From Dehalococcoidia bacterium (GTDB lineage Bacteria; Chloroflexota; Dehalococcoidia; GIF9; DYGU01): a DNA stretch of 64,000 bases. Below, in pieces: positions 13,879-27,036 of this stretch. Within the stretch, counting starts at the first letter, position 1. Each line of letters starts with the position of its first letter. The translations under genes were made by a program, and so were the position numbers. The notes under the pieces are model-generated. The model did not search any database. It was not told where the DNA came from and saw only the letters and a list, made by a program, of their open reading frames with translations. The stretch spans positions 6,348 to 70,347 of the forward strand of contig JBHOQK010000011.1 of NCBI GenBank assembly GCA_042408205.1, given 5' to 3'.

Positions 13879-15087
13879 ATGCCTGGACCTTTAGATGGCG
13901 TCAGGGTTGTCGAAATAACTATGTTTCAGCAAGGACCAGTAGCTGGGATGAGGTTAGGGGATTTAGGAGCTGATGTAATTAAAGTCGAACCCAAAACTGG
14001 TGACCCAGGTAGGGGAATGATGAGAATTATTGGCACTATGACAGGTCTAAAAGGACGCAATTATTATTTTGAGAACTGCAATCGGAACAAAAGAAGTATT
14101 GCTCTTGACCTAAAAACCAAAAAGGGGATGGAGATATTTTTAAAATTGATTGATACGGCTGATGTTTTCCTTACCAATCTGAGTATTGAGGCACCAATAA
14201 AGATGGGTATTGGTCCTGAAGTTCTGCTTAAAAGAAATCCCCGATTAATTTATGCTCAGGCTTCCGGCTGGGGGCGGAAGGGTCCTGATGCCCACGAGCT
14301 TTCTTTTGATTACACGGGAATAGCTCGGTCGGGACTAATGATGTCGTGTGGTGAGCGTGGTTCACCTCCTGCCCAGATTCTGCCAGGAATGGGTGATGAG
14401 TTAGGCGGACTTATTTGCGCTTGGGCAGTAACTGCTGCCCTTTACGCTCGAGAAAAAACTGGGAAAGGACAACTGGTGGATACATCTCTAATGGGAAGCT
14501 TGATTGCCATGCTCAGTCTAATAATGGCAGCTCCAGCTATCTTGGGACAGGAATTTCCCCGGGAAATTAGAGCTGAAGCCGGCAACCCTCTCTGGAACCA
14601 CTATCGGTGTAAAGATGACAAATGGATTGCCCTTGCCCACCTCCAACCAGATAGATACTGGCCAAACGTTTGTCGGGCGCTGGGCATTACCGAATTGGAA
14701 AACGATCCCAGATTTAACAGTATTGAAAATAGGGGAAAGAATGCTAAAGAACTCATAGCCATTATGGATGAAAAATTTGCTTCCAAAACGAGAGACGAAT
14801 GGTTAGAAATTTTACGGAAAGAAGGTTGCATTTGTACCCCCATCCAATCGCCTATGGAAGTATCTAACGATCCCCAAGCTTTAGCTAACAATTATTTTAT
14901 TTATGTTGACCACCCAGTGTGGGGGAAAACAAAAGTAGTTGGTTTTCCTTGGGATTTCAGTGACACCCCAGCCTCTTGGCGCCGGGAAGCCCCAGAGCTT
15001 GGTCAGCACACTGAAGAAATATTATTAGAGCTGGGTTATACTTGGGATGATATTGTAGAATTGAAAGAAGAAGGGGTAATATTGTAG
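13879..15087 (+). CDS. Family III CoA-transferase (CaiB/BaiF/Frc family).
   Basis: The N-terminus GVRVVEITMFQQGPVAGMRLGDLGADVIKVEP is diagnostic of family III CoA-transferases. The protein is 402 aa. Confidence 0.8.
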   Translation: MPGPLDGVRVVEITMFQQGPVAGMRLGDLGADVIKVEPKTGDPGRGMMRIIGTMTGLKGRNYYFENCNRNKRSIALDLKTKKGMEIFLKLIDTADVFLTNLSIEAPIKMGIGPEVLLKRNPRLIYAQASGWGRKGPDAHELSFDYTGIARSGLMMSCGERGSPPAQILPGMGDELGGLICAWAVTAALYAREKTGKGQLVDTSLMGSLIAMLSLIMAAPAILGQEFPREIRAEAGNPLWNHYRCKDDKWIALAHLQPDRYWPNVCRALGITELENDPRFNSIENRGKNAKELIAIMDEKFASKTRDEWLEILRKEGCICTPIQSPMEVSNDPQALANNYFIYVDHPVWGKTKVVGFPWDFSDTPASWRREAPELGQHTEEILLELGYTWDDIVELKEEGVIL

Positions 15088-15109
15088 AAAACAAAAGGAG
15101 GTAAAACTA

Positions 15110-15871
15110 ATGTTAGATTACACTGGAAAAACAGCTATAGTAACGGGAGGAGCCCGAGGAATTGGCAAGGCTATTTGTCTAACTCTGGCAAGGCAAGGAG
15201 CTGACATAGCTATTGCTGATATTTTAGAAGAAGAAGGTGCCACCACAGCTAAAGAAATTCAACAATTGGGTCGACAAGCTTTGTTTGTCAAAACTGACCT
15301 GACCAAAAAGGAAGAAGTAGATAGGATGGTAAATCAGGTTCTTACGACCTTTGGCAAAATAGATATTTTGGTAAATAATGCTGGCTGGGATAAAATAGAA
15401 CTTTTTGTCAACAATTCCCCCGAATTCTGGGATAAAGTAATTGCCATAAACTTTAAGCACCAAATATATACCACCAGAGCCGTCCTTGACCATATGATGA
15501 AAAGAAAATATGGTCGGATTATAAATATTGGCTCTGATGCCGGTAGAGTTGGTAGTACTGGAGAAGCCGTTTACTCAGGCTGTAAGGGAGCTTTAATTGC
15601 CTTTACCAAAACCCTGGCTCGAGAACTGGCACGATATGGTATAACCGTAAATTGCATTTGTCCCGGACCAACCGAAACTCCTTTAGCTGAGCAAATGAAG
15701 CAAGAAGAACTGGGGAGCAAGATTTTTGCCGCTATGGAGAAAATAATTCCCTTAGGCAGACTATGTACCCCTCAAGACGTTGCCAATGCTGTAGCCTTTT
15801 TTGCTTCTGACGAAGCCAGTTATATTACTGGGCAAACCTTAAGTGTTAGCGGTGGACTAACTATGGTATAA
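15110..15871 (+). CDS. Short-chain dehydrogenase/reductase (FabG-like 3-oxoacyl/3-hydroxyacyl dehydrogenase).
   Basis: The NAD-binding motif TGGARGIGKA is present. The catalytic residues fall in YSGCKGAL (YxxxK). Confidence 0.8.
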   Translation: MLDYTGKTAIVTGGARGIGKAICLTLARQGADIAIADILEEEGATTAKEIQQLGRQALFVKTDLTKKEEVDRMVNQVLTTFGKIDILVNNAGWDKIELFVNNSPEFWDKVIAINFKHQIYTTRAVLDHMMKRKYGRIINIGSDAGRVGSTGEAVYSGCKGALIAFTKTLARELARYGITVNCICPGPTETPLAEQMKQEELGSKIFAAMEKIIPLGRLCTPQDVANAVAFFASDEASYITGQTLSVSGGLTMV

Positions 15872-15919
15872 AGATATAGTTTGCCTGCCCAATCTTCCTT
15901 ACCACGCTAAAGGAATTGG

Positions 15920-16519
15920 TTAATGGGGCATAATTAAAGTAAAATAAGAAGGAAGTATACCTGTAGGACAGAGAGGATAGCACTCTTGACAACCTGGGCA
16001 TTCCTTACGAGCTATTGCAGGAAATAGAACAACCTCCTTTTGTGTTCCTCTGCCAATAAAGCCAATAGCATGTTTCTTTTTCACCTCTGCACAATAACGG
16101 ACACATAGACCACAAAGAATACAGAAGGTAGGTTCAGTCTCAAATCTTTTGGCTTGGGCTTCGGTTATACCATATTTTAATCCGTAATTTCGTAATTCAT
16201 AGTTTCTTAAGGCTTGGATTCCCGGAACCCGAGCCCACAAAAGTTCTAATAAAAGCTTCCGAATTTTGACTACCCTTTCCGATTCTGTCTCTACTATTAA
16301 TCCATCCTCAACCGGATAAACACAAGAAGCAACCAATCTTGAGTGCTTTCCTCTAATTATCTCCACAGTGCAAAGGCGGCAAGCACCATAAGGAGCTAAC
16401 TTTTCATGGTAACAAAGAGTAGGAATGTCAATACCAATTCCTTTTGCTGCTTGAAGAATGGTCATTTCCGTTTCTGCGGTAACCTTTATGCCATTGATAA
16501 CTAAATTAATCGCCTTCAT
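15920..16519 (-). CDS. Ferredoxin resembling the NuoG/HndD N-terminus, with a [2Fe-2S] site plus 2x[4Fe-4S]. Likely the terminal electron-transfer subunit of the Bam-like complex, BamI-like but truncated.
   Basis: The 2Fe-2S ligands are CYHEKLAPYGACRLC. The 4Fe-4S ligands are CILCGLCVRYC and CPGCQECYPLCP. It is the last gene of the bam-like operon. Confidence 0.6.
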   Translation of the reverse strand: MKAINLVINGIKVTAETEMTILQAAKGIGIDIPTLCYHEKLAPYGACRLCTVEIIRGKHSRLVASCVYPVEDGLIVETESERVVKIRKLLLELLWARVPGIQALRNYELRNYGLKYGITEAQAKRFETEPTFCILCGLCVRYCAEVKKKHAIGFIGRGTQKEVVLFPAIARKECPGCQECYPLCPTGILPSYFTLIMPH

Positions 16520-16546
16520 TTTCCTTTGCCCGGCTTCTTCCTTCTT

Positions 16547-17110
16547 TTACTTCCAGTAACTCCACCACCAGCTTTGTCCTTTTTTAGTTAAAGCCTCTTG
16601 CCTTTTAGTAATGTAGTCTGAGATTAAATCTTTATTCTCCCGGACATACCTTTCAACTGCTTCGAGATCTTGTCTTAATCGCCCCAGGTCTTTCCCTTCA
16701 CTTATCCCAAGGGGTCCCAATTCCTTTAGTTGATGGGTGAATTTAGTCATAATTTCTGCAAAACGAATTCCTTCAGAAGCTGATACCCATTCTATCCGTA
16801 GTCTTTCCGGATTCAACCCTATTTGAGAAAGTAGTTTCTTACATAAATTTGTCATCTCTAATGCCTTATAATTTCCTTCTGTGACATAATGGCATTCCCC
16901 AAGCCAACAACCACCAATAAACACCCCATCAGCCCCTTTCAGGAAAGCCCGAAAAACAAAAACGGGGTCGACCCTTCCTGAACACATCACCCTTATTACC
17001 CTTATATTAGGGGGATATTGGTAACGAGAGACTCCTGCCAGGTCAGCCCCAGCATAGGCACACCAATTGCATAAAAAGCCTAAAATCTTTGGTTCATAAC
17101 CATATTTCAT
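16547..17110 (-). CDS. bamF: MvhD/FlpD-like [2Fe-2S] protein, BamF-like.
   Basis: The MvhD signature is LGFLCNWCAYAGAD...CSGRVDP. A 4-nt overlap with the upstream HdrA-like gene suggests translational coupling. Confidence 0.7.
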   Translation of the reverse strand: MKYGYEPKILGFLCNWCAYAGADLAGVSRYQYPPNIRVIRVMCSGRVDPVFVFRAFLKGADGVFIGGCWLGECHYVTEGNYKALEMTNLCKKLLSQIGLNPERLRIEWVSASEGIRFAEIMTKFTHQLKELGPLGISEGKDLGRLRQDLEAVERYVRENKDLISDYITKRQEALTKKGQSWWWSYWK

Positions 17111-20100
17111 GAACTAACCTCAACAAGAGCTGGAAACGCAGCATCAATTTGGGCTAATATTTGTTCATCAGTAAAGTGTTTTAAGGAAATAGCCCTGGCA
17201 GGACAAACAGTATTACATAGACCATCCCCTTTACATAGTACAGAAATTACCCTGGCTTTCTTGCCCTCAGAGGTATCATAAAGCTCTATCGCACCGTATT
17301 TACAAACTGCTTGACACTGACCACACCCAATACAGTAGCTTTCATTCACTTCGCAAATAGCACCCGGAACTGTCACTGAATCCTTAGAAAGAATAGTAGC
17401 TGCTCTGCCAGCAGCTCCATAAGCCTGCCGAATGGTTTCTGATATATGCTTGGGATAGTGAGCCATCCCACATAGAAAAATACCTTCAGCAGCGCAATCA
17501 ACTGGTCTTAGCTTGACATGAGCTTCCAAGAAGAAACCATCGGGGTTTAAAGGTACTTTGAATAATCGGGATATTTCCGCATTGGTTTCGGAGGGGATAA
17601 CCGCCGCTGCTAAAGCCAGGAAATCAGTATCAATGAGAAGCTTCTTACCTAAAATAGGGTCAGTTAGAGTAACCCTGAGACGACGTTGATCACCTTCTTC
17701 AACAACTTCCACTTTGGGTTTATCTTCAGGCTCATACCGGATGAATTTCACTTCTCGGTTAGCGGCTTCTCGGTAATAATCTTCCTTAAATCCATAGGTT
17801 CTTATATCTCGATAAATAATATAAATATCCTTTCGAGGATTTATTTCTTTTAGTTTCAAAGCACATTTTATAGCCTGACTACAGCAGACTCGGCTACAGT
17901 AATTTCTACTTTTCTCTCGGCAACCAACACATAAGATCATTACCAAGTTTTCAGCGTTAATCACTTTCTCATCTCTTTTAGCAATTTTTTCTTCCAGCTC
18001 CAATAAAGTAAATACCCTCTCATCTTTACCATAAAGGTATTCAGTAGGTTTATATTCCTGAGCACCAGTAGCAATAATGGCTATTCCATGTTTTATTTCC
18101 CTAGCCTTTCCTTCAGATACTATCTTAGTCACAAAATTCCCGACATAACCAGAAACTTCAGTAACGGTAGAATCGGTAAAAATATGAATTAAGGGGTGCC
18201 GATAAACTTTATGTATAAGGTCCTTTAAATAGGCTTGAACATCAATCCCTTCTAAAGTGTAATGAATCCTTCGAGCTATCCCACCCAAATCTTTCTCCTT
18301 TTCTATTAGATAAACCTCAAATCCCTGGTTGGCTAAACTAAGAGCACTAATCATTCCAGCTATACCACCACCGATGACTAACCCCTTTTTATCCACAGGG
18401 AGTTCAAATTCTTTCAAAGGTTGTAGCAAAGTAGCTCGGGCTACTGACATCCGAACCAAATCCTTCGCTTTTTGGGTAGCAGCCTCCTTGTCCCGGGAGT
18501 GCACCCAAGAACAGTGTTCTCTTATGTTAGCCATATCGAAGAAATATTGATTGACCCCTCCTTCTCGCAGGGTATCCCGGAATAATGGTTCGTGTGTCCT
18601 AGGAGTGCATGCAGCTACAACTACTCGATTAAGCTGTTTTTCTTTAATTGCCTCTGCTATTTGCTGAGCAGCATCGGTGGAACAAGACCAGGGGTTTTCT
18701 TGAACATGAACAACGTTAGGTAAGGTAGAAGCATATTCAACTACTGAAGGAACGTCTACCACTCTTCCAATATTGGCTCCACAATGGCACACAAATACTC
18801 CAATCCTTGGTTTTTCCCCCGAGACATCTCTTTCTGGCGGATACTCCCTTTCTCGGGCTAATTTCCCTCGCCGGTAGGAAAGAAGTTCACTACAAAGGGC
18901 AGCAGCACCACTGGCAGTCATAATGGCTTCTGGAATATCCATAGGACCCTGAAAGGCACCACTGACAAAAATTCCCTTGCGAGATGTTTCTATAGGATTA
19001 GAAGGATTACCTTTGCAAAATCCATAAGAATTTAATTCGATGCCAAACTTATTAGCCAGCTCTCTTACATTTTCAGGAGGGTTTAAACCAACAGACAATA
19101 CAACAAGGTCAAATTCCTCTTCTTTCACTATCCCATTAGCAGAGTACCTGATAGTTACATTCTGGCTTTCCGGAAGCTCCTTTCCTAAGGACACGTAGCT
19201 TCTTATAAATCTGACTCCAGGAAGGTTTGCAGCTCTTTGATAAAATCGCTCAAAATCTTTACCCCAGGACCGGATATCATTATGAAATATAGTCGCTTCA
19301 ATATCAGGGTCGTGGTCTTTAGCTAAGATTACCTGCTTTTGGGTATAGGTGCAGCATACCGTGGAGCAATAACTATTACCACCCGGGATGACTTGCCTGG
19401 AACCAACACATTGAATCCAGGCTATTTTCTTAGGATGCCTCCCATCCGAAGGACGTCTTATCTCACCCTCATAAGGTCCACTGGAACATAATATCCGCTC
19501 AAAGTCAAGACTGGTTACTACATTCTTTATCTTTCCATACCCATAATCACCTCTTAGCCTTGGGTCAAAAATCTCATAGCCCGGGGATAGAATTATAGCT
19601 CCTACTTCTATTTCTATTTTTTCTTCTTTTTGATAAAGGTCAATAGCATGTTGGGGACAGACCGTCTCACAGATACTGCATTTTTTATCTTTGAGGAAAA
19701 GACATTTTTCGGGATCTATATAAGTAACCAAAGGAATTGATTGGGGAAAATATATATGGCTACATTTAGTAAAAGATAAGTTTTGATTATATCTATCAGG
19801 GACTTTTACAGGACAATATACAGAGCAGGTAGTACAACCTTTGCATATATCATCTAAAATATATCTTGGCTTTTTAATCAAGGTTACTTTGAAATTTCTT
19901 GCCTCCCCTTCTACCTTATCTACTTCAGTATAGGTAAGAATGTTAATGTTAGGATGTCGGCTACATTCAATAAACTTAGGGGATTCAATACATAAAGAGC
20001 AATCATTAGTAGGAAAAGTCTTATCCAGCTGAGCCATTTTCCCACCAATAGCCGGTAATTTGTCCACCAAATAAACCTTAAAACCCATATCTCCAAGATC

Positions 20101-20178
20101 TAGAGAAGCTTGGATACCACTTATTCCAGCCCCTACCACCATAACATCGCCAACATAAGCTAATTTTTCTTCTTCCAT
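17107..20178 (-). CDS. bamE: Double HdrA-like FAD/Fe-S oxidoreductase (BamE-like, 1023 aa), with two HdrA modules plus ferredoxin domains.
   Basis: Two FAD-binding Rossmann motifs are present (VMVVGAGISGIQAS and VIGGGIAGMISALS). There are numerous CxxCxxC clusters. The size matches G. metallireducens BamE (~1000 aa). No in-frame TGA is present, so the protein is not a selenoprotein here. Confidence 0.7.
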   Translation of the reverse strand: MEEEKLAYVGDVMVVGAGISGIQASLDLGDMGFKVYLVDKLPAIGGKMAQLDKTFPTNDCSLCIESPKFIECSRHPNINILTYTEVDKVEGEARNFKVTLIKKPRYILDDICKGCTTCSVYCPVKVPDRYNQNLSFTKCSHIYFPQSIPLVTYIDPEKCLFLKDKKCSICETVCPQHAIDLYQKEEKIEIEVGAIILSPGYEIFDPRLRGDYGYGKIKNVVTSLDFERILCSSGPYEGEIRRPSDGRHPKKIAWIQCVGSRQVIPGGNSYCSTVCCTYTQKQVILAKDHDPDIEATIFHNDIRSWGKDFERFYQRAANLPGVRFIRSYVSLGKELPESQNVTIRYSANGIVKEEEFDLVVLSVGLNPPENVRELANKFGIELNSYGFCKGNPSNPIETSRKGIFVSGAFQGPMDIPEAIMTASGAAALCSELLSYRRGKLAREREYPPERDVSGEKPRIGVFVCHCGANIGRVVDVPSVVEYASTLPNVVHVQENPWSCSTDAAQQIAEAIKEKQLNRVVVAACTPRTHEPLFRDTLREGGVNQYFFDMANIREHCSWVHSRDKEAATQKAKDLVRMSVARATLLQPLKEFELPVDKKGLVIGGGIAGMISALSLANQGFEVYLIEKEKDLGGIARRIHYTLEGIDVQAYLKDLIHKVYRHPLIHIFTDSTVTEVSGYVGNFVTKIVSEGKAREIKHGIAIIATGAQEYKPTEYLYGKDERVFTLLELEEKIAKRDEKVINAENLVMILCVGCREKSRNYCSRVCCSQAIKCALKLKEINPRKDIYIIYRDIRTYGFKEDYYREAANREVKFIRYEPEDKPKVEVVEEGDQRRLRVTLTDPILGKKLLIDTDFLALAAAVIPSETNAEISRLFKVPLNPDGFFLEAHVKLRPVDCAAEGIFLCGMAHYPKHISETIRQAYGAAGRAATILSKDSVTVPGAICEVNESYCIGCGQCQAVCKYGAIELYDTSEGKKARVISVLCKGDGLCNTVCPARAISLKHFTDEQILAQIDAAFPALVEVSS

Positions 20179-20190
20179 TTTCTCCTACCT

Positions 20191-21000
20191 TCAATCAATT
20201 TGACGCTCTATCTTTAGCCCAAACCGCTGTGGGTGAGAATAAACAGAAAGGCGATTACCTCGGGCATAACCAACCAAAGTAATATCTAAATCCCTTGCCA
20301 ACGATATAGCACGCCAGGTAGGGGAGCTCCTGGAAATAATAACTGGAACCCTCATCTTTGCCACTTTGAGCACCATCTCCGAAGAAATGCGACCAGTAGT
20401 AAAGAGTATTCCATCTTTTATTGATAAATTCCTGAGCAGACACTCACCTTGGATCTTGTCTAAAGTATTATGTCGCCCCACATCCTCAGCCATTACCATC
20501 AAGTCCTTGGTATCCCATAGAGCCGAGGCATGCACTCCACCACAAAAACGATACAATTCCATTTGTTCTTGAAATTGCTTCATTAGATTTAGCACTTCCG
20601 TTGGTGTAACAACAAGATTTGAATTGACCCTCTCTCCTTGAGTTTTAAAACCGAACCCACCACCACAGCCAGAAGTAAGTACTCGCTGTCTGGGCAATCG
20701 GTATTCAGGATTGGTTAGCCTGACATCAGCCATTAACATGTTTTGGCAAATCTCTAATCTGGCGACGTCGCTTATTTTTGAAATAATTCCTTCTGTGTAC
20801 AAAAACCCAAGAACAAGACAATCCAACTTGGTTGGAGTACATAGGATAGAAACCAGTTCTTGAAGATTTACGTAGATGGTAAGCTCTATTTCATCCGGTA
20901 CTGAGGTTAAGATAGTACTCCATCCCTCATCAGTAAACCGATGAGAGACTACGTTCTCAATAGCACCTTTAATTGTAAATTCACTAATCGCTTTTGACAT
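20191..21000 (-). CDS. fdhD: FdhD-like sulfurtransferase (formate-dehydrogenase accessory family).
   Basis: FdhD motifs are present (LTSGCGGG, GGVHASALW, VGRHNTLDKIQG). The protein is 269 aa. It is inserted between the BamD-like and BamE-like genes. Confidence 0.55.
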   Translation of the reverse strand: MSKAISEFTIKGAIENVVSHRFTDEGWSTILTSVPDEIELTIYVNLQELVSILCTPTKLDCLVLGFLYTEGIISKISDVARLEICQNMLMADVRLTNPEYRLPRQRVLTSGCGGGFGFKTQGERVNSNLVVTPTEVLNLMKQFQEQMELYRFCGGVHASALWDTKDLMVMAEDVGRHNTLDKIQGECLLRNLSIKDGILFTTGRISSEMVLKVAKMRVPVIISRSSPTWRAISLARDLDITLVGYARGNRLSVYSHPQRFGLKIERQID

Positions 21001-21016
21001 GTTAAACTTTTTGATT

Positions 21017-22159
21017 CTAAATTACTTCCTGAACGACCTCAGTAATATCTTTTATCTCAATAGCTTCATTATTCCCAAAGGTTAACTTACTATCCTCAAA
21101 ATTGATAATACAATATGGACAGGAAGTAACTAATTCTTTAGCCCCAACTTCTATAGCTTGTTTTACTCTGATATCGGAGAATCTTTCACCTTTTGGAGTA
21201 TCCATCCAAATCCTGCCCCCTCCCCCACCACAGCAAAGACTGCTTTCTCTCGCCTCCGGCATTTCTACCAATTCTACACCGGGTATCTTCTTTAAAATAT
21301 CCCGAGGTTCATCATATATGTTATTATGGCGACCAAGGTAACAAGGATCGTGGTAAGCGACTTTCTTGGGATATTCCTTAGTTAGCTTAAGTTTGTCTTG
21401 GTTGATAAGCTGAGATAGATACTGAGTAATATGAATTACCTCAAAATTCACTTTAAATTCGGAATATTCGTTTCGGAAAGTATGATAACAATGGGGGGAA
21501 GAAACAACAATTTTTTTAACACCCTTATCAATAAAAGTTTTAATATTTTCCTTAGCTAAACGTTTAAATAATCCCTCATCCCCAGTCTTACGGAGACTCT
21601 CCCCACAACAATTCTCTTCAGAACCTAATATCCCAAAATCCACCCCCACTTTATTGAGAATATTAGCTGTAGCGATAGCTACCTTCTTTACTCTGGGGTC
21701 ATAATTTAAGTAGCAACAGGTAAAATATAAAACTTCTGTCTCCTCAGTAAAATTTTTCACCAATAATCCTTTTGCCCACTCTGCCCTTTTTTCTCGTTTT
21801 TCACCAAGGGGATTACCTAAGGTGCCAAGACTAGTTCTTACACTGCGAATCGGAGCTGGAGAAATACCAGCTCCCGAGGCAATCCGACGCAAAGACATAC
21901 TAACATTTATTGTTTCTACCCCCCTTGGACACCACTGGGGACATATGCCACAAGTAGTACATCGCCATATATCCTCACTTTCTATTTCAGCCAAACCAAA
22001 GGTAGCCTGCCGGACGATATAGCGCATGCTAAAATTTCTAACTTTGTTCCAAGGACAAACCGTATCACACATTCCGCATTGATAGCAAAGCTTGAAGGAT
22101 TCTCCGCCAGCTTCTTTTATAGCAACTATGGCTTCTTTAAAAGGAGCTAAGGTTTCCAC
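21017..22159 (-). CDS. bamD: HdrD/GlcF-like Fe-S oxidoreductase with two CCG domains (BamD-like).
   Basis: Two ferredoxin motifs are present (CYQCGMCDTVCP and CTTCGICPQWCP). Two CCG motifs are present (FTCCYLNYDP and SSLCCGGGGG). The 380-aa size is close to BamD (387 aa). Confidence 0.7.
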   Translation of the reverse strand: METLAPFKEAIVAIKEAGGESFKLCYQCGMCDTVCPWNKVRNFSMRYIVRQATFGLAEIESEDIWRCTTCGICPQWCPRGVETINVSMSLRRIASGAGISPAPIRSVRTSLGTLGNPLGEKREKRAEWAKGLLVKNFTEETEVLYFTCCYLNYDPRVKKVAIATANILNKVGVDFGILGSEENCCGESLRKTGDEGLFKRLAKENIKTFIDKGVKKIVVSSPHCYHTFRNEYSEFKVNFEVIHITQYLSQLINQDKLKLTKEYPKKVAYHDPCYLGRHNNIYDEPRDILKKIPGVELVEMPEARESSLCCGGGGGRIWMDTPKGERFSDIRVKQAIEVGAKELVTSCPYCIINFEDSKLTFGNNEAIEIKDITEVVQEVI

Positions 22160-22178
22160 CTTCCCAATTCCTTTTTAG

Positions 22179-22709
22179 CTACTTTCGCCCTTTACTAATT
22201 CGGGTAACGGTATCCATTACCGTCTTTAAGCCATATTTCTTTATTAATGAGTCTAACCCTATTTCCAACTCCCCAGGCTTCTTTTCTTCTTCCCCTTCCA
22301 CTTCTCTTTCTTCATAAGTTAAAGCGTCCGATAGGCACCACTGAACACACATTGGTTCCGGTAATGGTGGTTCTTCTTCACACATGTCACATTTTAAAGG
22401 TAAACCAGAATCAGGTTCTTTAAAAAGACTGCGGGAAGGACAAGAAGCTCGGCAAAAGCTACATTCGTCATATTCCTTGCCGTCAATGATATAAATGTTT
22501 CTGCCATTACATTCGGCTTCAGTATATTCCCCAGCAAATACTGGAACAAAAATATTTCTTCTGGGGTCAAAAAATACCCGAATCCGAGACCTTTCTGGAT
22601 TGATACTGCTATATTTAGGTGAAGCGTGAAAAGCAGAACAAACCACTTCACAGGCTCGGCAACCATTGCATTTATCCACATCAATTTTTATTACCTTAAT
22701 TTTCTTCAC
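22179..22709 (-). CDS. bamC: Poly-[4Fe-4S] ferredoxin subunit (BamC-like).
   Basis: Three cluster-ligand sets are present (CNGCRACEVVC, CSFCRASCP and CDMCEE...CVQWC). The protein is 176 aa. It overlaps the bamB stop by 14 nt. Confidence 0.65.
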   Translation of the reverse strand: MKKIKVIKIDVDKCNGCRACEVVCSAFHASPKYSSINPERSRIRVFFDPRRNIFVPVFAGEYTEAECNGRNIYIIDGKEYDECSFCRASCPSRSLFKEPDSGLPLKCDMCEEEPPLPEPMCVQWCLSDALTYEEREVEGEEEKKPGELEIGLDSLIKKYGLKTVMDTVTRISKGRK

Positions 22710-24663
22710 TGGTTATAATCCCCCTTTGTTCCAAGTCTTGGCTAACATAATCTAAACCTAATTCATGTAAGGTTTTTTTAGTAGGAATCCCTTCATTATT
22801 CCAGCCTTTAAATTTGTAATATTCATCAAGCAACTTTGCTTCATACTCCGGAAACCTTTTCTTCCAATGGTCTTCTGGCGGACGCTCGTCTTTTCTTCTC
22901 AAACCCCTTCTGACGTTGATAGCTCTAACTAAATTTCGGTTTCTTCGCGTTATTTTCCATAGTTCAGCTTCATCAATATCAAGCCCGGTGGCAAAGGAGA
23001 TTACCTGAGGCAAATTATGTATATGATAAGGAGGCTTTAGAGGAAACGATGATAAACCGGCACAAATACCAGTGCAATCATCTATGTAATGCATTGTCTC
23101 CTGCCAATCAACAAGCTCGCAAACTAAGTCAATAGATGGATAAAAGGGGAAGGAATGTTCTCCGCGAGGCTCCCATTCTAAAATAAATTGCTTAAACCTT
23201 TCATTAGGAACCTGGATCCAATCTTTGACAAACTCCTCTTTCTCCTCCCTGGTAGCAAAAGGAGCTTGAGGCAGATTACCTTCAATTTGGGTGATGCTTA
23301 TTTTTTCTCCAGTAGCATACATGAGATAAAAAATAGGATTTAGCATACCAAGTTTAATGGGCATCTGCTCCAGTTTTTTAGTTGTATTATGGTCATAGGC
23401 TTCTGCCCCTTTACCAATCTGACGCGCTGCCCAATAAACGCCATTAGCCAAAATATCCCCTATCCCTTCTCGCCGGACGATCCGGTCAAGGAGCCAGAAA
23501 AATCTTCCCTCAGGATCAGAGGGCATTCCTGCCATGTCCTGGTCAGTTAAAATGCCTGCCTCATAAAGTTCAAGAGCAAAAGCTATAACTTGAGGCGTTG
23601 AATATCCATCTACTCCATACTCCTGAGCCACACCAGCGATTCTAAAACCGAAATCCAAGTCTAACATGGCTGCCATAGTATACGTCAGTTTGGAATAGCA
23701 TTTCATCATGTATCTTTTAATCGTGGGATGCCTTATTATCCCGCCACATTTAAGGGGACAGTTATAGCAGCTTATCAGCCGTTCTACTGCCTTGTCTTGT
23801 ATCTCTTTCCATGTTTCTGAGGTTTCCTTAGTCCAGAAACCGGTTCTTCTAAGACGAGCATTTCCCCAAGCAAAATTTTCCGTATGCCAGGCTTCATCGT
23901 GGATTGCCATTTCTTGAGGTGCCCCAAGAAAAGCTAAAATGGGCGGTACGCCTTTAATTGGATTTTGTTGCCGCCATTGTATATATTTGAGGATTTCATT
24001 ACATAGGTTAGTAAATTCAGCTGGTCGAGCAATAAAAATGTCCTTTGTACCTCGGACGGCTATAGCCTTCAACTTTTTATCCCCCATAATAGCACCTATC
24101 CCCCCTCGGCTGGCACTAGATCTGCCATGCTCGATAGAGGCAAAATAAACCCTGTTTTCCCCAGCCAGACCAATAGCCGCTACTTGGGCTTTTGGCTCCT
24201 TGAGCTCTTGACGGATAAGCTCTGCCGTTTCCAGACAACCTTTCCCTGCCAGATGCCGAGCATCCCGAATTTCCACTTTATCATTGTTTATCCACAAATA
24301 AACTAAATCGGGAGACTTACCCCGAATAATGATTTTATCGTAGCCAGCATATTTCAGCTCTGGTCCAAAAAATCCCCCCATCATGGAATAGGCCATCAGT
24401 AAAGTTTGGGGCGAAAAAGTAGAAATAATCGTCCGATTAGCTCCAATAGTCGGTGTGCCATCTAAGAGACCGGCGCTAAATATGAGTAAATTATCTGAGG
24501 AAAAGGGCTCAACTTCAGGAGGCACCCTATCCCATAAAATCTTGGCGTTAGTGCCTAAACCTCCTAAATGAAGCTCGGTTAATTTTGGGTCAGTAGTCAC
24601 TCTTTCAATGTTGCCTCGAGATAAATCAATTTCTAAATTAACTCCTGTCTCAGCATACCTCAA
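22696..24663 (-). CDS. bamB: Tungsten aldehyde:ferredoxin-oxidoreductase-family enzyme, most likely the class II benzoyl-CoA reductase active-site subunit BamB or a paralog for another aryl-CoA.
   Basis: The N-terminus MRYAETGVNLEIDL...LGGLGTNAKILWDRVPPEVEPFS...KYAGYDKIIIRGKSPDLVYLWINNDKVEIRD matches the highly conserved BamB N-terminus as recalled from the literature. The protein is 655 aa. It is followed by BamC/D/E/F-like genes in canonical order. Confidence 0.7.
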   Translation of the reverse strand: MRYAETGVNLEIDLSRGNIERVTTDPKLTELHLGGLGTNAKILWDRVPPEVEPFSSDNLLIFSAGLLDGTPTIGANRTIISTFSPQTLLMAYSMMGGFFGPELKYAGYDKIIIRGKSPDLVYLWINNDKVEIRDARHLAGKGCLETAELIRQELKEPKAQVAAIGLAGENRVYFASIEHGRSSASRGGIGAIMGDKKLKAIAVRGTKDIFIARPAEFTNLCNEILKYIQWRQQNPIKGVPPILAFLGAPQEMAIHDEAWHTENFAWGNARLRRTGFWTKETSETWKEIQDKAVERLISCYNCPLKCGGIIRHPTIKRYMMKCYSKLTYTMAAMLDLDFGFRIAGVAQEYGVDGYSTPQVIAFALELYEAGILTDQDMAGMPSDPEGRFFWLLDRIVRREGIGDILANGVYWAARQIGKGAEAYDHNTTKKLEQMPIKLGMLNPIFYLMYATGEKISITQIEGNLPQAPFATREEKEEFVKDWIQVPNERFKQFILEWEPRGEHSFPFYPSIDLVCELVDWQETMHYIDDCTGICAGLSSFPLKPPYHIHNLPQVISFATGLDIDEAELWKITRRNRNLVRAINVRRGLRRKDERPPEDHWKKRFPEYEAKLLDEYYKFKGWNNEGIPTKKTLHELGLDYVSQDLEQRGIITSEEN

Positions 24664-25523
24664 TTTTTACCCCCTATTTTCTGATAGTCGTTAAATACGG
24701 AATCAAAATACTTATTGGCTTTGTCAGCTAAAAGATTATGATATTCTCGGAATAAAGCTGCAGCTTGAGGACGCAACCAATCATCAGGTAACAGTTCCTT
24801 AGGCAAGTCAGGGTCAAAAAAAGGAAATTTACGGTATTCGTGAATAAGCATAAACCTTTCCACAAAACACTCACTATCTTCAATAATTTCCCCGCGACGA
24901 AGGCGCTCTAAATGTTTTTCCAATTTAGGCTGATATTTAGCAATGAAAGCAGCATATTTCTCCTGGATTTTTGTCAAATTCCAACATCGAGTCACTATAC
25001 GCCGGGGGTCAGTAAAACCCTGATGTTTGGCTTGAAAGATTTCAACATATTCCCGGATTTGGAGAGAATCGACTAATTCCTCAACCTCTTTAGTTAAATC
25101 ATAAGGAGAAATCCAGGTAGCCTCACTCAAAGCGCCATATCCCATCCAGCTTAATTCTTGACGTAAACGGTTTCTTATCTCTCGCTTGTTTTCCGGGATA
25201 GAGTAAGTAACAATATACCACACTCCTTCCCAGTGATTATCTTTCCGCTTAAAGATACGCTCAGCTCCCTTAACCAAAAGGTCATTTCCTTTAGGGGTTA
25301 ATGAATAAAAGCTCTTTTTACCTATCCGCCTCGCTTTTAATAAACCTATCCGGCACATCCGGGATACTGCTGACCGTATAGCCTGCTCCGATAATCCAAA
25401 GTTAGATAGTATCCGGATTAGACTACCAATCCCAATTTCACCCCCCCTATGGCGAATATAATCCCCATATAAGGTAAGTATGGTGGATTGAGGACGCAAT
25501 AGATTTATAGTTTTATATGTCAT
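24660..25523 (-). CDS. paaX: PaaX-family transcriptional regulator (aryl-CoA-responsive repressor type).
   Basis: The N-terminal winged helix and PaaX-like core are recognisable (LRPQSTILTLYGDYI...GIGSLIRILSNFGLSEQAIRSAVSRM). The ATGA stop/start overlap with bamB places it in the same transcription unit. Confidence 0.65.
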   Translation of the reverse strand: MTYKTINLLRPQSTILTLYGDYIRHRGGEIGIGSLIRILSNFGLSEQAIRSAVSRMCRIGLLKARRIGKKSFYSLTPKGNDLLVKGAERIFKRKDNHWEGVWYIVTYSIPENKREIRNRLRQELSWMGYGALSEATWISPYDLTKEVEELVDSLQIREYVEIFQAKHQGFTDPRRIVTRCWNLTKIQEKYAAFIAKYQPKLEKHLERLRRGEIIEDSECFVERFMLIHEYRKFPFFDPDLPKELLPDDWLRPQAAALFREYHNLLADKANKYFDSVFNDYQKIGGKN

Positions 25524-25548
25524 AATTTTTAATAGCGTTTATTTTGCG

Positions 25549-25570
25549 ATATGTTTATTTTATAACATAT
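25549..25570. promoter_or_regulatory. Perfect 7-bp inverted repeat ATATGTT-N8-AACATAT located 26 bp upstream of paaX. A candidate operator.
   Basis: The repeat was read directly from the sequence. It sits in the 358-bp divergent intergenic region between paaX and the thiolase operon. Confidence 0.35.
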
Positions 25571-25790
25571 TTACCTTGATTTGTCAACTTTTCCATTTAG
25601 TCTTTATGAGAGGTTAAAAATAAGAGCTTTGTACTAGGATAGACTTTTCAGGGTTTAACCAAAAAAACAGAGGAGCAATTTTATCGCTGGGCAAAAGGTG
25701 ACTGAGCCACATCTAATTAATTTCAGTCAATATTTTGGTGATTTAACAAACCTTCTTTTGGGTATATGCTCGATAATTTAAATCGCCATC

Positions 25791-25820
25791 TTGACAAGCA
25801 ACTCGTTGGTAAAGCATAAT
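25791..25820 (+). promoter_or_regulatory. Sigma-70-like promoter (TTGACA-N18-CATAAT) for the plus-strand thiolase/DUF35 operon.
   Basis: A consensus -35 and a near-consensus -10 lie ~60 bp upstream of the ATG at 25882. The RBS AAAGGAGG is present. Confidence 0.4.
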
Positions 25821-25881
25821 ACAAAAAGTTTTTGTCCCTTAATCCCTTGTAATAAGCTTATACAAAGGAGGTCACTAAAAT

Positions 25882-27036
25882 ATGCAACGTCGGGTAGCTA
25901 TAATCGGTGTTGGTTACACCCCCTTTCGGTCAATAACTCCCGATATTTCTTTTAAAGAAATGATGTTTGAAGCCGCCCAAAAAGCTTATGAAGATGCCGG
26001 TGTCTGCCCTCAGCACGATATTGACGCTTTTGTCACCTGTGGGGACGACTTTACTCATGGCAGAAGCATTTTCAATATTCATACTCCGGATAATCTTGGA
26101 GCAGTGCTTAAGCCTATTCACACTCTCTCTGCTGAAGGTATTTATGGTCTGGCAGATGCTTACATGCTAATAAATACTGGTTTAGTCGATATTATGGCGG
26201 TAGAATCCCACAGTAAAGCCTCAAACATCCTTACCCCCTATTACTTAATTGCTCATGCTATGGATCCAATTTATAACAAACCCTTGGGTTATAATCCTTA
26301 TTTTATTGCTGGTATGGAAATGAACCGTTATATGTTTGAAAGTGGGACAACCAAAGAACAGTGTGCTTTAGTTTCAGTCAAAAATAAAGCAAATGCTTTA
26401 CTTAATCCTTTAGCTGCCCATGGGGATAAGATAACAGTAGAAGATGTCTTTAACTCGGAAATGATGTTTTATCCTCTAAACCGTTTAGATATAAGTCCTC
26501 CCGCTGATGGTGGTATTGTCATGGTTTTAGCTTGTGAGGAAAAAGCCAAGATTTTATGTGAGAAACCAATATGGATAAGAGGTGTTGGCTGGTGTTCGGA
26601 TGCTCCGAGTTTAGAGACAAGGGAGTGGGGAGAAGCTGTGTATGCTCGGTTAGCCGGTGAAATGGCATATAAAATGGCGGGGATAAAAAACCCAAGAAAA
26701 GAAATTGATTTTGCTGAAGTAGATGACACTTTCTCATACAAAGAACTTCAACATCTGGAAGCTTTAAAACTCTGTCGCCCTGGAGAAGCTGGCTTTATGG
26801 TGGCTGAAGGCGCAACTCAAAGGGAAGGCGAGTTTCCGGTAAATGTCTCCGGGGGAAGTTTAGGTATTGGCTGGTTATATGAAGCTACAGGCCTGCAAAG
26901 AGTTTTAGAGGTAGTGCTCCAGCTCCGGGGTGAAGCCGGTAAAAGACAATTACCCAACGTCAAAATAGGTTTAGCCCAATCATGGCGAGGTATCCCCGCC
27001 AATAGCGGGGCAGTAATAATTTTAAGCAATGAGTAA
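25882..27036 (+). CDS. SCP-x-type thiolase (paralog 1 of a tandem pair).
   Basis: The N-terminus RVAIIGVGYTPF is thiolase-like. The gene is followed by a second thiolase and two DUF35 genes. Confidence 0.75.
   Translation: MQRRVAIIGVGYTPFRSITPDISFKEMMFEAAQKAYEDAGVCPQHDIDAFVTCGDDFTHGRSIFNIHTPDNLGAVLKPIHTLSAEGIYGLADAYMLINTGLVDIMAVESHSKASNILTPYYLIAHAMDPIYNKPLGYNPYFIAGMEMNRYMFESGTTKEQCALVSVKNKANALLNPLAAHGDKITVEDVFNSEMMFYPLNRLDISPPADGGIVMVLACEEKAKILCEKPIWIRGVGWCSDAPSLETREWGEAVYARLAGEMAYKMAGIKNPRKEIDFAEVDDTFSYKELQHLEALKLCRPGEAGFMVAEGATQREGEFPVNVSGGSLGIGWLYEATGLQRVLEVVLQLRGEAGKRQLPNVKIGLAQSWRGIPANSGAVIILSNE

What the first reader, a model, noticed from the sequence alone, without database searches (positions are those of the whole stretch)
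15920..25523. paaX-led, tungsten class-II benzoyl-CoA-reductase-like operon (BamB-C-D-[FdhD]-E-F-ferredoxin) in a non-canonical configuration
Eight co-directional, tightly packed or overlapping genes reproduce the order and protein sizes of Geobacter BamBCDEF. From the sequence the sizes are 655, 176, 380, 1023 and 187 aa, against ~653, 190, 387, 1017 and 176 aa for BamBCDEF from memory. Three departures stand out. First, a PaaX-type regulator is translationally coupled (ATGA overlap) at the head of the operon. Second, an FdhD-like sulfurtransferase is inserted between BamD and BamE. Third, the NADH-binding BamGHI module is replaced by a single 199-aa NuoG-N-terminal-like 2Fe-2S/4Fe-4S ferredoxin. 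This points to a ferredoxin-coupled, possibly electron-bifurcating, aryl-CoA dearomatising reductase. Its electron-donor side and regulation differ from the described enzyme. Its substrate may be an aryl-CoA other than benzoyl-CoA, given the PaaX regulator and the Ior genes nearby.
Basis: partly seen in the sequence, partly recalled or inferred. Interest (0 to 1): 0.75.

Follow-up and report, generated by a model that had tools for sequence, protein, structure and literature searches.

The report
Tungsten benzoyl-CoA reductase, rewired electron input
This is a real operon for the oxygen-sensitive tungsten enzyme that breaks the aromaticity of benzoyl-CoA, probably from an uncultured Dehalococcoidales bacterium. 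Its catalytic and electron-splitting parts are ordinary, but the NADH-using electron entry module has been deleted and replaced in a way not seen in any other sequence searched.

Summary
The eight co-directional genes at 15920-25523 (- strand) exist with the stated sizes. The 655-aa protein is a true BamB: it scores 1063 bits, gapless over 651 residues, to Geobacter BamB, against 226 bits to the best aldehyde oxidoreductase. Cys322 and Glu251/His255/Glu257/His260 are present. BamC, BamD, BamE (CxxC, Lys281) and the BamF core are also orthologous.

Two of the three claimed departures are not unique. A PaaX gene upstream recurs in five Dehalococcoidales loci, each with one copy of a shared 21-bp motif. 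FdhD between bamD and bamE occurs in six of 80 loci and in two published, expressed clusters.

The third departure is real but differs from the description. bamG and bamH are absent from the 64 kb. About half of related clusters also lack bamGHI, but in those BamF carries the ferredoxin-accepting domain of BamH. Here BamF (187 aa) has neither that domain nor the BamI-docking helix-turn-helix. It ends in a tail borrowed from a response-regulator gene. The 199-aa protein is a HoxU-like paralogue of BamI from a NuoE-NuoF-HoxU operon, and a scar marks the nuoEF deletion.

I read this as a class II reductase fed at ferredoxin level. It is a new variant of a known kind, and this input layout is a singleton.

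The parts
25532..25552 (-). Conserved 21-bp imperfect inverted repeat ATATCGCAAAATAAACGCTAT. It lies just upstream of the PaaX start and downstream of a TTGACA-N17-TATAAA element. It is a candidate operator of the PaaX-like repressor.
   Evidence: The motif ATANCGNRAAWWWAWCGCNAT occurs once in the window, against 0.08 expected by chance. It occurs once upstream of PaaX in each of L001, L002, L005, L018 and L069, and in none of 83 other loci. L001 was not used to derive the pattern. Protein binding was not tested.
24660..25523 (-). PaaX-family transcriptional regulator (287 aa), the first gene of the operon.
   Evidence: Pfam PaaX, PaaX_M and PaaX_C match at 1e-25 to 4e-30. TIGR02277 scores 259.9 bits, just under its 264.55 cut-off. 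Its TGA stop overlaps the TTG start of BamB. Orthologues of 60-68% identity sit upstream of bamB in five Dehalococcoidales loci.
22696..24663 (-). BamB, the tungsten-bis-metallopterin catalytic subunit of class II benzoyl-CoA reductase (655 aa).
   Evidence: It scores 1063 bits, gapless over residues 1-651, to G. metallireducens BamB (PDB 4z3w_A). The next best match is Pyrococcus AOR at 226 bits. Identity to the Geobacter sequence is 68%. Cys322, Glu251, His255, Glu257, His260 and Cys299/302/306/534 are present. These residues are defined in PMC12096430.
22179..22709 (-). BamC, the [4Fe-4S] polyferredoxin partner of BamB (176 aa).
   Evidence: It scores 254 bits to PDB 4z3w_E, covering residues 4-175 of the query and 10-179 of the chain.
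21017..22159 (-). BamD, an HdrD/HdrBC-like subunit with two CCG domains and a 2x[4Fe-4S] domain (380 aa). It is the high-potential output arm.
   Evidence: Pfam CCG matches twice (3.8e-38) and Fer4_8 also matches. It is 62-76% identical to the BamD ORFs in the 80 loci. The role follows from bioRxiv 10.64898/2026.04.10.717634.
20191..21000 (-). FdhD-family protein (269 aa) of a single-cysteine subtype (SGCG--GG). It is presumably a W-cofactor chaperone or sulfurtransferase for BamB.
   Evidence: PF02634 matches at 2.7e-72, and TIGR00129 scores 178 bits against a 140.9 cut-off. It holds the same position in L008, L011, L020, L031, L034 and L048, at 57-66% identity. The loop lacks the second Cys of the canonical SCGICG.
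17107..20178 (-). BamE, a fused double HdrA-like flavoprotein (1023 aa). It is the electron-bifurcating core and is the selenium-free (Cys) version.
   Evidence: NCBIfam HdrA2 scores 965 bits. Two FAD Rossmann folds start at residues 11 and ~600, and a C-terminal Fer4 domain spans 943-996. It has Cys60-x-x-Cys63; position 63 is Sec in 38 of 50 orthologues and Cys in 12. Lys281 is invariant in 50 of 50. These match Cys59/Cys62 and Lys280 of the Geobacter structure.
16634..17110 (-). BamF core, an MvhD/FlpD-like [2Fe-2S] adaptor (residues 1-159). It has Cys where Geobacter has Sec19 (CNWC versus CNWU).
   Evidence: PF02662 matches at 3.7e-53. The closest homologues are ferredoxin-fused BamF proteins, up to 84% identical over the first ~89% of the protein.
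16547..16633 (-). Foreign 28-residue tail of BamF (KDLISDYITKRQEALTKKGQSWWWSYWK*). It replaces the C-terminal domain that every other BamF carries.
   Evidence: The tail is homologous, at protein and DNA level, to the C-terminus of the response-regulator gene 'X' that precedes nuoE in L082, L083, L086 and L088. No other BamF among the best 120 covers this tail.
16520..16546 (-). 27-nt spacer that is a scar of the deleted nuoF.
   Evidence: In another reading frame the spacer reads ...KKPGKGK followed by TGA, which overlaps the next ATG. This matches the NuoF 3' end ...IRKRGKGK* with the same ATGA junction in L083.
15920..16519 (-). HoxU-like / BamI-like iron-sulfur wire protein (199 aa) with one [2Fe-2S] and two [4Fe-4S] motifs. 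All 12 Cys are intact.
   Evidence: Pfam Fer2_4, Fer4_7 and Fer4_Nqo3 match; NCBIfam gives HoxU and NuoG N-terminal hits. It is 50-57% identical to BamI of bam clusters. It is 64-70% identical to the third gene of NuoE-NuoF-HoxU operons, in five of five contexts examined. A neighbour-joining tree places it in that clade, not in the BamI clade.

Best explanation
The operon encodes a selenium-free class II (tungsten, ATP-independent) benzoyl-CoA reductase of the BamGH-less type, under a PaaX-like repressor that probably senses an aryl-CoA.

What is shown by homology to the solved Geobacter enzyme:
- BamB reduces the ring at a Cys-ligated W-cofactor.
- BamC wires BamB to BamE.
- The N-terminal FAD of BamE (Lys281, Cys60-Cys63) splits electron pairs. 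The low-potential electron goes to BamC/BamB. The high-potential electron goes through BamD to an external acceptor, which is ETF in Geobacter.
- The [2Fe-2S] cluster of BamF feeds the bifurcating flavin.

What is inferred:
- There is no NuoE/NuoF (BamG/BamH) FMN/NADH module, so NADH is not a co-donor and electrons enter at ferredoxin potential.
- In other BamGHI-less clusters, entry is through the BamH-type 2x[4Fe-4S] domain fused to BamF.
- In this window that domain was replaced. A recombination joined the BamF core to the C-terminal tail of a response-regulator gene from a sigma-54-controlled X-NuoE-NuoF-HoxU operon. nuoE-nuoF were then deleted.
- This left a stand-alone HoxU-like three-cluster protein as the entry wire into the E1/E2 clusters of BamE. 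The borrowed tail possibly serves as its docking peptide.
- The in-operon single-Cys FdhD most likely matures or inserts the W-cofactor of BamB.
For: Identity of the core:
- BamB scores 1063 bits versus 226 bits for the best AOR, with all hallmark residues present.
- BamC scores 254 bits to the solved chain.
- BamD, BamE and BamF domain content is as expected.
- Synteny with 80 bam loci holds at 61-90% identity per subunit.
- The bifurcation hallmarks are conserved.
- The mechanism is taken from bioRxiv 10.64898/2026.04.10.717634.

Absence of BamG and BamH:
- The ~150-aa and ~642-aa genes of canonical loci are NuoE-like and NuoF-like.
- They have no homologue in the window.

The BamGHI-less class:
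- 26 of 26 ferredoxin-fused BamF loci lack BamI, while 20 of 24 non-fused loci have BamG-H-I (Fisher p = 2e-10).
- The fused domain is 65-77% identical to the last 83 aa of BamH.

The rearrangement:
- Tail homology is shown.
- The nuoF scar is shown.
- The paralogous origin of the 199-aa gene is shown.
- All cluster ligands of the 199-aa protein are intact (sequence).
- Both junctions are reproduced in a second assembly.

FdhD: it holds the same position in six loci and in clusters that are transcribed or detected as protein (PMC5852087; PMC13101534).
Against: - No activity, expression or complex data exist for this organism.
- The helix-turn-helix of BamF that contacts BamI in Geobacter is absent, so docking of the HoxU-like protein is unproven.
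- The layout is a singleton. No other BamF among the best 120 homologues from 5.8 billion proteins has it. A junction search in JGI metagenomes gave only chance hits. It could therefore be a recent, neutral or deleterious scar.
- Only 64 kb is visible. NuoEF homologues, ETF, bamA/dch/had or a second intact bam cluster may lie elsewhere in the genome.
- No ETF genes and no ring-hydrolysis genes were seen in the window.
- Substrate-pocket residues beyond the catalytic set were not compared.
Confidence: 0.6

Rival explanations
1. The input module is complete but split. NuoE/NuoF-type proteins encoded elsewhere in the genome, for example in an X-NuoE-NuoF(-HoxU) operon, dock onto the HoxU-like subunit in trans. 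The enzyme would then still use the Geobacter-type NADH plus ferredoxin confurcation.
For: The 199-aa protein belongs to a clade whose members always follow NuoE-NuoF, in five of five contexts. It should therefore retain the NuoF-facing surface. Dehalococcoidia commonly carry such operons next to Hdr/MvhD-type genes (L083, L088).
Against: No such genes are present in 64 kb. In all 25 loci examined where a homologue of this protein sits in a bam cluster or a NuoEF operon, nuoEF lie immediately upstream. The scar shows they were deleted here. A resident intact operon would supply its own HoxU.
Confidence: 0.2
2. The BamF tail and the 199-aa gene are a non-functional scar of a recent deletion. 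The reductase either takes electrons directly at BamE/BamF from ferredoxin, or it is crippled and a second bam cluster does the work.
For: The layout is a singleton. The deletion scar is still readable at DNA level. Both known docking or entry domains of BamF are lost. Dehalococcoidales MAGs can carry more than one bamB: L001 and L007 come from one MAG.
Against: All eight ORFs are intact and tightly spaced. The 12 cluster cysteines of the 199-aa protein and its Shine-Dalgarno sequence and ATG are preserved. The fusion to the tail is in frame and ends at the native stop of X.
Confidence: 0.2
3. The enzyme is a BamB-type reductase for a different aryl-CoA, such as a substituted benzoyl-CoA derived from aromatic amino acids. 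Alternatively it works mainly in the aromatising direction.
For: The regulator is of PaaX type. IorAB, CoA ligases, a family III CoA-transferase and a 2-hydroxyacid dehydrogenase lie nearby. No bamA/dch/had was seen in the window. BamB paralogues of unknown specificity are common; D. gibsoniae has six copies (PMC4148979).
Against: Identity to the biochemically verified BamB is 68%, gapless, with identical catalytic and proton-relay residues. The closest relatives sit in complete bam clusters. PaaX-bamB is a lineage habit of Dehalococcoidales and not specific to this locus.
Confidence: 0.12
4. The BamF/HoxU junction is an assembly chimera.
For: The source is a metagenome, and two unusual junctions lie within 120 bp.
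Against: The identical 187-aa and 199-aa genes, in the same order with the same flanks, occur on a separately assembled Logan contig of 21.8 kb. The NCBI contig is 73.9 kb. The fusion is in frame and the scar is biologically coherent.
Confidence: 0.03

Closest known systems
Geobacter metallireducens class II benzoyl-CoA reductase Bam[(BC)2DEFGHI]2 (PDB 4Z3W-4Z40; cryo-EM preprint 10.64898/2026.04.10.717634)
   Same: BamB and BamC are orthologous and colinear (1063 and 254 bits). The W-ligand Cys322 and the Glu251/His255/Glu257/His260 relay are conserved. BamD has two CCG domains. BamE is a double HdrA with the CxxC pair and the bifurcating-FAD lysine. BamF has the MvhD core. Gene order is B-C-D-E-F.
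   Different: There is no BamG or BamH (the NuoE/NuoF FMN-NADH confurcation module). BamF lacks the winged-helix domain that binds BamI. The BamI position is held by a paralogue from another operon. Cys replaces Sec19 of BamF. The operon additionally contains PaaX and FdhD.
BamGHI-less bam clusters with ferredoxin-domain-fused BamF (for example L002 and L018 Dehalococcoidales, L020 Peptococcaceae BRH_c8a, L031 Dethiobacteria, L004 Deltaproteobacteria). I found no description of them as a class in the library searched.
   Same: The core is closest to this group: BamB 73-83% and BamF core up to 84% identical. There is no NADH module. PaaX lies upstream in the Dehalococcoidales members. FdhD lies between bamD and bamE in the Bacillota and Chloroflexota members.
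   Different: Those clusters keep the BamH-type 2x[4Fe-4S] ferredoxin-accepting domain on BamF and have no BamI-like gene. The window lost that domain and instead has a stand-alone HoxU-like protein.
bamBCD-fdhD-bamE clusters of benzene-degrading consortia (Peptococcaceae contig-100_37, PMC5852087; Desulfobacterota ORM2a, PMC13101534)
   Same: FdhD is encoded between BamD and BamE. It is transcribed in the first case and detected by proteomics in the second.
   Different: ORM2a keeps BamGHI. In the Peptococcaceae paper the FdhD gene was listed as 'bamI'. Neither cluster has PaaX or the chimeric BamF.
Sigma-54-regulated response-regulator(X)-NuoE-NuoF-HoxU operons of Dehalococcoidia (L082, L083, L084, L086, L088), related to the HydBC/HoxEFU diaphorase modules
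   Same: These operons are the source of the 199-aa gene (64-70% identity), of the SWWWxYW tail now on BamF, and of the nuoF 3' remnant.
   Different: In those operons NuoE and NuoF are always present and the module is not attached to a bam cluster.
E. coli / Pseudomonas PaaX, the phenylacetyl-CoA-responsive repressor
   Same: It has the same three-domain architecture and a near-threshold TIGR02277 score.
   Different: It heads an anaerobic ring-reduction operon rather than the aerobic paa genes. The candidate operator (ATANCG-N9-CGCNAT) was defined here from six Dehalococcoidales-type loci and was not compared with any published PaaX-binding site. The effector is unknown.

Membership tests
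Class II benzoyl-CoA reductase (BamB-I) | The catalytic subunit is closer to BamB than to aldehyde-oxidising AOR/FOR/GAPOR/WOR members. | tested here: met
   It scores 1063 bits to 4z3w_A, against 226 bits or less to 1aor, 9mqx, 8c0z, 1b25 and 6x1o.
Class II benzoyl-CoA reductase (BamB-I) | Cys322 as protein ligand to W, and the Glu251/His255/Glu257/His260 Zn-site/proton conduit (PMC12096430). | tested here: met
   All five residues are present at identical positions, as are Cys299/302/306/534 for the [4Fe-4S] cluster.
Class II benzoyl-CoA reductase (BamB-I) | BamC polyferredoxin, BamD (HdrD-like with two CCG domains) and BamE (fused double HdrA with CxxC and the bifurcating-FAD Lys). | tested here: met
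   Cys60/Cys63 and Lys281 are conserved.
Class II benzoyl-CoA reductase (BamB-I) | BamF is an MvhD-like adaptor with an extended C-terminal domain: winged HTH in Geobacter, or a ferredoxin domain in BamGHI-less clusters. | tested here: not met
   The MvhD core is present (PF02662). The protein stops at 187 aa with a foreign tail.
Class II benzoyl-CoA reductase (BamB-I) | BamG (NuoE-like) and BamH (NuoF-like, FMN/NADH) input module. | tested here: not met
   No homologue exists in the 64 kb. A deletion scar is present. The rest of the genome was not available.
Class II benzoyl-CoA reductase (BamB-I) | BamI (HoxU-like [2Fe-2S] plus 2x[4Fe-4S]). | tested here: inconclusive
   The fold class and cysteines match. 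However, the protein is only 50-57% identical to BamI and groups with NuoEF-associated paralogues.
Class II benzoyl-CoA reductase (BamB-I) | Selenocysteine in BamF, and in BamE in most orthologues. | tested here: not met
   The window has CNWC and CSLC instead of CNWU and CSMU. The Cys variants occur in 12 of 50 BamE orthologues.
Class II benzoyl-CoA reductase (BamB-I) | Benzoyl-CoA to cyclohexa-1,5-diene-1-carbonyl-CoA activity, and induction by aromatic substrates. | not testable with these tools
   This needs biochemistry or transcriptomics.
PaaX regulator family | PaaX N-terminal, middle and C-terminal domains, and the equivalog score. | tested here: inconclusive
   All three Pfam domains are met. 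TIGR02277 scores 259.9 against a 264.55 cut-off. The effector and the operator were not tested.
FdhD/NarQ sulfurtransferase family | Family HMM match, and the two-cysteine loop (SCGxCG; its functional importance is recalled from memory). | tested here: inconclusive
   TIGR00129 scores 178 against a 140.9 cut-off. The loop is SGCG--GG with one Cys only, as in the other in-operon Bam FdhDs.

The most novel reading that the evidence does not exclude
BamGH-less reductases show that the NADH/ferredoxin confurcation step described for Geobacter is dispensable. A single HdrA-type bifurcation fed only at ferredoxin potential would suffice for ring reduction. This window would then carry a third, independently evolved entry device: a HoxU-like wire captured from another complex and tethered to BamF by a borrowed 'SWWWxYW' docking tail. 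That would be a natural example of plug-and-play exchange of electron-input modules on a bifurcating enzyme.
Probability: 0.3. Interest if true: 0.65.

Novelty: new variant of a known kind. Interest (0 to 1): 0.5.

Why it matters
Class II benzoyl-CoA reductase performs the most reducing reaction known in biology without ATP. The 2026 structure explains this by two coupled bifurcation modules.

The comparison made here shows that about half of the closest bam clusters lack the first module (BamGH) altogether. These clusters keep only its ferredoxin-accepting domain, grafted onto BamF. This bears directly on which donors are really needed.

The window adds an extreme case in which even that domain is gone and a foreign HoxU-like subunit sits in its place. 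If the enzyme is active, it marks the minimal input requirement and offers a smaller, selenium-free and NADH-independent enzyme for expression studies.

The recurrent in-operon single-Cys FdhD points to an unstudied step in maturation of the Cys-ligated tungsten cofactor. The PaaX-plus-operator pair gives a testable regulator for anaerobic aromatic degradation in Dehalococcoidia.

Tried and rejected
- The promoter/terminator consensus scan of 15700-26000 gave fewer promoter-like sites than shuffled controls (19 versus 24.5), so I did not use it.
- The first inverted-repeat call failed on strand syntax. It was replaced by a script.
- Organism identity could not be established. Exact-sequence cluster look-ups gave singletons without names. 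The window matches only unnamed NCBI and Logan contigs. 'Dehalococcoidales' rests on best hits only.
- Literature searches for a description of BamGH-less or 'bamBCDEF' clusters, and for PaaX with bam genes, found nothing relevant. One of these was swamped by unrelated 'BamH/BAMG' papers.
- The junction-specific DNA pattern search in JGI metagenomes gave 57 hits, all chance. None encodes any of the eight proteins.
- The generic-AOR reading of the 655-aa protein was rejected.
- I first considered that the 199-aa protein is BamI retained in situ. The phylogeny and the nuoF scar reject this.
- No structure prediction was run. The tools fold single chains only, and the open question is a subunit interface.

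Full report
OBSERVATION

One search lists eight ORFs on the - strand between 15920 and 25523. They are packed with 4-, 14- and 4-nt overlaps and 12-27-nt gaps.

Pfam and NCBIfam give these assignments:
- PaaX (three domains)
- an AOR-family protein
- a polyferredoxin
- an HdrD-like protein with two CCG domains
- FdhD
- a double HdrA-like flavoprotein (HdrA2 model, 965 bits)
- an MvhD/FlpD protein
- a Fer2_4 + 2x[4Fe-4S] HoxU/NuoG-N-terminal-like protein

The PaaX stop and BamB start overlap as TTGA, because BamB starts with TTG behind a GGGGG Shine-Dalgarno sequence.

IDENTITY OF THE CORE

The 655-aa protein aligns without a single gap over residues 1-651 to G. metallireducens BamB (PDB 4z3w_A, 1063 bits). 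The best aldehyde oxidoreductase scores 226 bits. Identity to the Geobacter sequence is 68%.

The features that separate BamB from aldehyde-oxidising relatives are described in PMC12096430. They are the tungsten ligand Cys322 and the Zn-site/proton conduit Glu251, His255, Glu257 and His260. All are present at the same positions, as are the four cluster cysteines.

The 176-aa protein scores 254 bits to the solved BamC.

In an alignment of 50 BamE orthologues, the window has the Cys60-x-x-Cys63 pair and the invariant Lys281. These correspond, with an offset of one, to the Cys59-Cys62 disulfide and to Lys280 at the bifurcating FAD of the Geobacter cryo-EM structure (bioRxiv 10.64898/2026.04.10.717634).

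Position 63 is selenocysteine (in-frame TGA) in 38 of 50 orthologues and Cys in 12, including the window. The Sec19 position of BamF is also Cys here. The enzyme is therefore a selenium-free version.

COMPARATIVE CONTEXT

BamB relatives are abundant. There are 7,978 proteins at E <= 1e-50 and more than 592 stretches in GTDB species genomes. The best are 83% identical and come from Dehalococcoidales MAGs. I annotated the 80 best loci by BLAST with the eight window proteins.

The canonical order is BamB-C-D-E-F followed by genes of ~150, ~642 and ~204 aa. The first two are NuoE-like and NuoF-like, so they are BamG and BamH. The third is a homologue of the window's 199-aa protein (50-57% identity), so it is BamI.

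1. PaaX. A PaaX orthologue (60-68% identity) lies directly upstream of bamB in L001, L002, L005, L018 and L069, all Dehalococcoidales. One lies divergently in L048 (Chloroflexota). A 21-bp imperfect inverted repeat, ATANCGNRAAWWWAWCGCNAT, occurs exactly once just upstream of the PaaX start. This holds in the window (25532-25552) and in each of the five loci, and in none of 83 other loci. It is a candidate auto-operator. A PaaX-led bam operon is thus a lineage habit, not a peculiarity of this window. Only the 4-nt overlap is specific; relatives have 26-55-nt gaps.

2. FdhD. An FdhD gene (57-66% identical) sits between bamD and bamE in L008, L011, L020, L031, L034 and L048. The same arrangement is in the literature:
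   - In a Peptococcaceae benzene-degrading consortium, contig-100_37 genes run bamB, bamC, bamD, 'FdhD' (listed as bamI), bamE, and are transcribed (PMC5852087).
   - In Desulfobacterota ORM2a, the FdhD protein was detected by proteomics and called a chaperone (PMC13101534).
   
   These in-operon FdhDs form a subtype with a single cysteine in the catalytic loop (SGCG--GG). Other FdhD genes near bam clusters have the canonical SCGICG. FdhD has also been proposed as a maturation factor for a YdhV-clade, Cys-ligated WOR (PMC13328260).

3. The input module. Lack of bamGHI is common, and it correlates perfectly with the form of BamF.
   - In 26 loci BamF ends in a 2x[4Fe-4S] domain, and none of them has BamI downstream.
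   - In 24 loci BamF lacks that domain (winged-helix type), and 20 of them have BamG-H-I. Most of the rest are cut by contig ends.
   - Fisher p = 2e-10.
   
   The fused domain is 65-77% identical to the last 83 residues of BamH. The cryo-EM study identifies that part of BamH as the H1/H2 acceptor site for external reduced ferredoxin. BamGHI-less enzymes therefore keep the ferredoxin port and drop the FMN/NADH site. I found no description of this in the searchable literature.

WHAT IS UNUSUAL IN THE WINDOW

BamF is only 187 aa and has neither C-terminal domain. Among the best 120 BamF homologues from 5.8 billion proteins, only the identical sequence is this short. All the others are 232-318 aa and carry Fer4 or HTH domains (one lists only the FlpD core). 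The closest, at up to 84% identity, are ferredoxin-fused and align only to the first ~89% of the window protein.

The last 28 residues (…RQEALTKKGQSWWWSYWK*) are homologous, at protein and DNA level, to the C-terminus of a response-regulator/TPR/Cys-rich gene ('X'). In Dehalococcoidia, X precedes a NuoE-NuoF-HoxU-like operon controlled by a sigma-54 activator and a HydA-like sensor kinase.

The 199-aa protein is 64-70% identical to the HoxU-like third gene of exactly those operons, in five of five contexts examined. In a neighbour-joining tree it falls inside that clade, sister to the L088 protein, and well apart from the BamI clade.

The 27-nt spacer before its ATG still encodes, in another frame, the last codons of NuoF. 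The window reads …KKPGKGK-TGA overlapping ATG, while L083 reads …IRKRGKGK-TGA overlapping ATG.

The locus is therefore a chimera: BamF core :: X tail, then a nuoE-nuoF deletion, then HoxU-like.

No BamG or BamH homologue is present anywhere in the 64 kb. All 12 cluster cysteines of the 199-aa protein are intact. A separately assembled Logan contig reproduces the BamE-BamF(187)-199 aa-SDR order, so an assembly artefact is unlikely. A junction-specific pattern search in JGI metagenomes returned only chance matches. The layout is a singleton.

MECHANISM

Shown by homology to the solved enzyme:
- ring reduction at the Cys-ligated W-cofactor of BamB
- the BamC wire
- HdrA-type bifurcation at the first FAD of BamE
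- high-potential output through BamD
- the BamF [2Fe-2S] cluster feeding the flavin

Inferred:
- NADH is not a co-donor, because there is no FMN/NADH subunit.
- Electrons enter at ferredoxin potential. A 2-oxoacid:ferredoxin oxidoreductase such as IorAB (2458-5030) could supply them.
- Entry is through the three clusters of the HoxU-like protein into the C-terminal ferredoxin-like domain of BamE (Fer4 at 943-996).
- The borrowed X tail may be what tethers the HoxU-like protein to BamF, replacing the lost winged-helix interface. Supporting this, response-regulator domains are found fused to NuoE and to HoxU-like proteins in the donor operons, so the response-regulator protein X may associate physically with that module.
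- FdhD most likely acts on the W-cofactor of BamB.
- The PaaX-like protein most likely represses the operon until an aryl-CoA accumulates.

RIVALS

- NuoEF may be supplied in trans. This is plausible because the HoxU-like clade always partners NuoEF, but the scar shows local loss.
- The tail and the 199-aa gene may be a functionless scar. The singleton status and the readable scar favour this; the intact ORFs and ligands argue against it.
- The substrate may be a different aryl-CoA, or the enzyme may run in reverse. There is no positive evidence, and the catalytic residues are identical to Geobacter.
- The junction may be an assembly chimera. A second assembly argues against it.

SURROUNDINGS

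The flanks encode:
- three thiolase-like + DUF35 sets (31-2447, 25882-29206, 57978-60588)
- a KAS-like enzyme and an acyl-CoA dehydrogenase
- a family III CoA-transferase, a 2-hydroxyacid dehydrogenase and an SDR (12858-15871)
- a branched-chain-type ABC transporter
- three AMP-forming ligases and one ADP-forming acyl-CoA synthetase
- IorAB

No ETF, no crotonase-type ring hydrolase/hydratase and no phenylglyoxylate pathway genes were seen. The window alone therefore does not define the pathway or the high-potential acceptor.

VERDICT

The BCR assignment is strongly supported. Two of the three 'departures' are already-seen lineage traits.

It is a new variant of a known kind. The broader by-product of the comparison may interest specialists more than this single locus. 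That by-product is two BamF architectures that track the presence or absence of BamGHI, with the BamH ferredoxin port grafted onto BamF.

Noticed in passing
L002, L004, L008, L014, L018-L021, L024, L027, L028, L031, L034, L036, L039, L045, L048, L049, L052, L056, L058, L061, L067, L069, L070, L074, compared with L009, L012, L016, L030, L035, L037, L047, L054, L055, L060, L062, L065, L066, L068, L072, L073, L075, L078-L080: BamF comes in two architectures. One has a C-terminal 2x[4Fe-4S] domain that is 65-77% identical to the last 83 aa of BamH; these loci have no BamGHI (26 of 26). The other is the winged-helix type, and 20 of 24 of these loci have BamGHI. About half of the closest bam clusters thus lack the NADH module but keep its ferredoxin port.
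   Followed up: yes
BamE codon 63 (window 19990-19992, - strand) and the orthologues in L004-L080: The second residue of the BamE CxxC pair is selenocysteine (in-frame TGA) in 38 of 50 orthologues and Cys in 12. The window, L002, L009, L018, L030, L034 and L047 are Cys types.
   Followed up: partly
window 20191-21000; L008, L020, L031, L034, L048, L018: FdhD genes inside or next to bam operons form a single-cysteine subtype (SGCG--GG). Other bam-neighbour FdhDs (L019, L021, L030, L057, L068) have the canonical SCGICG loop.
   Followed up: partly
L082 1-8729; L084 1-8044; L086 1-7624; L088 4606-13363: A conserved Dehalococcoidia-type operon has this content: a sigma-54-related gene, a sensor kinase with a [FeFe]-hydrogenase-like domain, a sigma-54 activator, a response-regulator/TPR/Cys-rich protein ending in SWWWxYW, then NuoE-NuoF-HoxU-like. 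In L084 receiver domains are fused to NuoE and to HoxU. In L083 and L088 it lies beside MvhD/FdhA-like or HdrABC-like genes.
   Followed up: partly
L017, L018, L061, L070 (downstream of BamF): A ~670-aa BamD-like (34-38% identity) protein, followed by two ORFs of ~250-330 aa, lies directly after bamF in several BamGHI-less clusters. By size and position these could be an ETF:quinone oxidoreductase plus ETF, which would fit the ETF acceptor proposed for Geobacter. Their domains were not checked here.
   Followed up: no
window 31-2447, 25882-29206, 57978-60588: Three separate sets of thiolase-like (SCP-x type) genes paired with DUF35/ChsH2 OB-fold genes lie in one 64-kb window. One set is divergent from the PaaX promoter region.
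   Followed up: no
window 37211-38488: A full-length serpin (PF00079, 1.7e-122) is encoded between uvrA and a metallo-beta-lactamase-fold gene.
   Followed up: no
window 55495-56730: An MFS MOT1-type molybdate transporter homologue is present. It is possibly relevant to tungstate or molybdate supply for BamB.
   Followed up: no
L001 and L007: Two contigs of the same Dehalococcoidales MAG (RS_16_7) each carry a bamB, 83% and 79% identical to the window. Multiple bam copies per genome therefore occur in this lineage.
   Followed up: no
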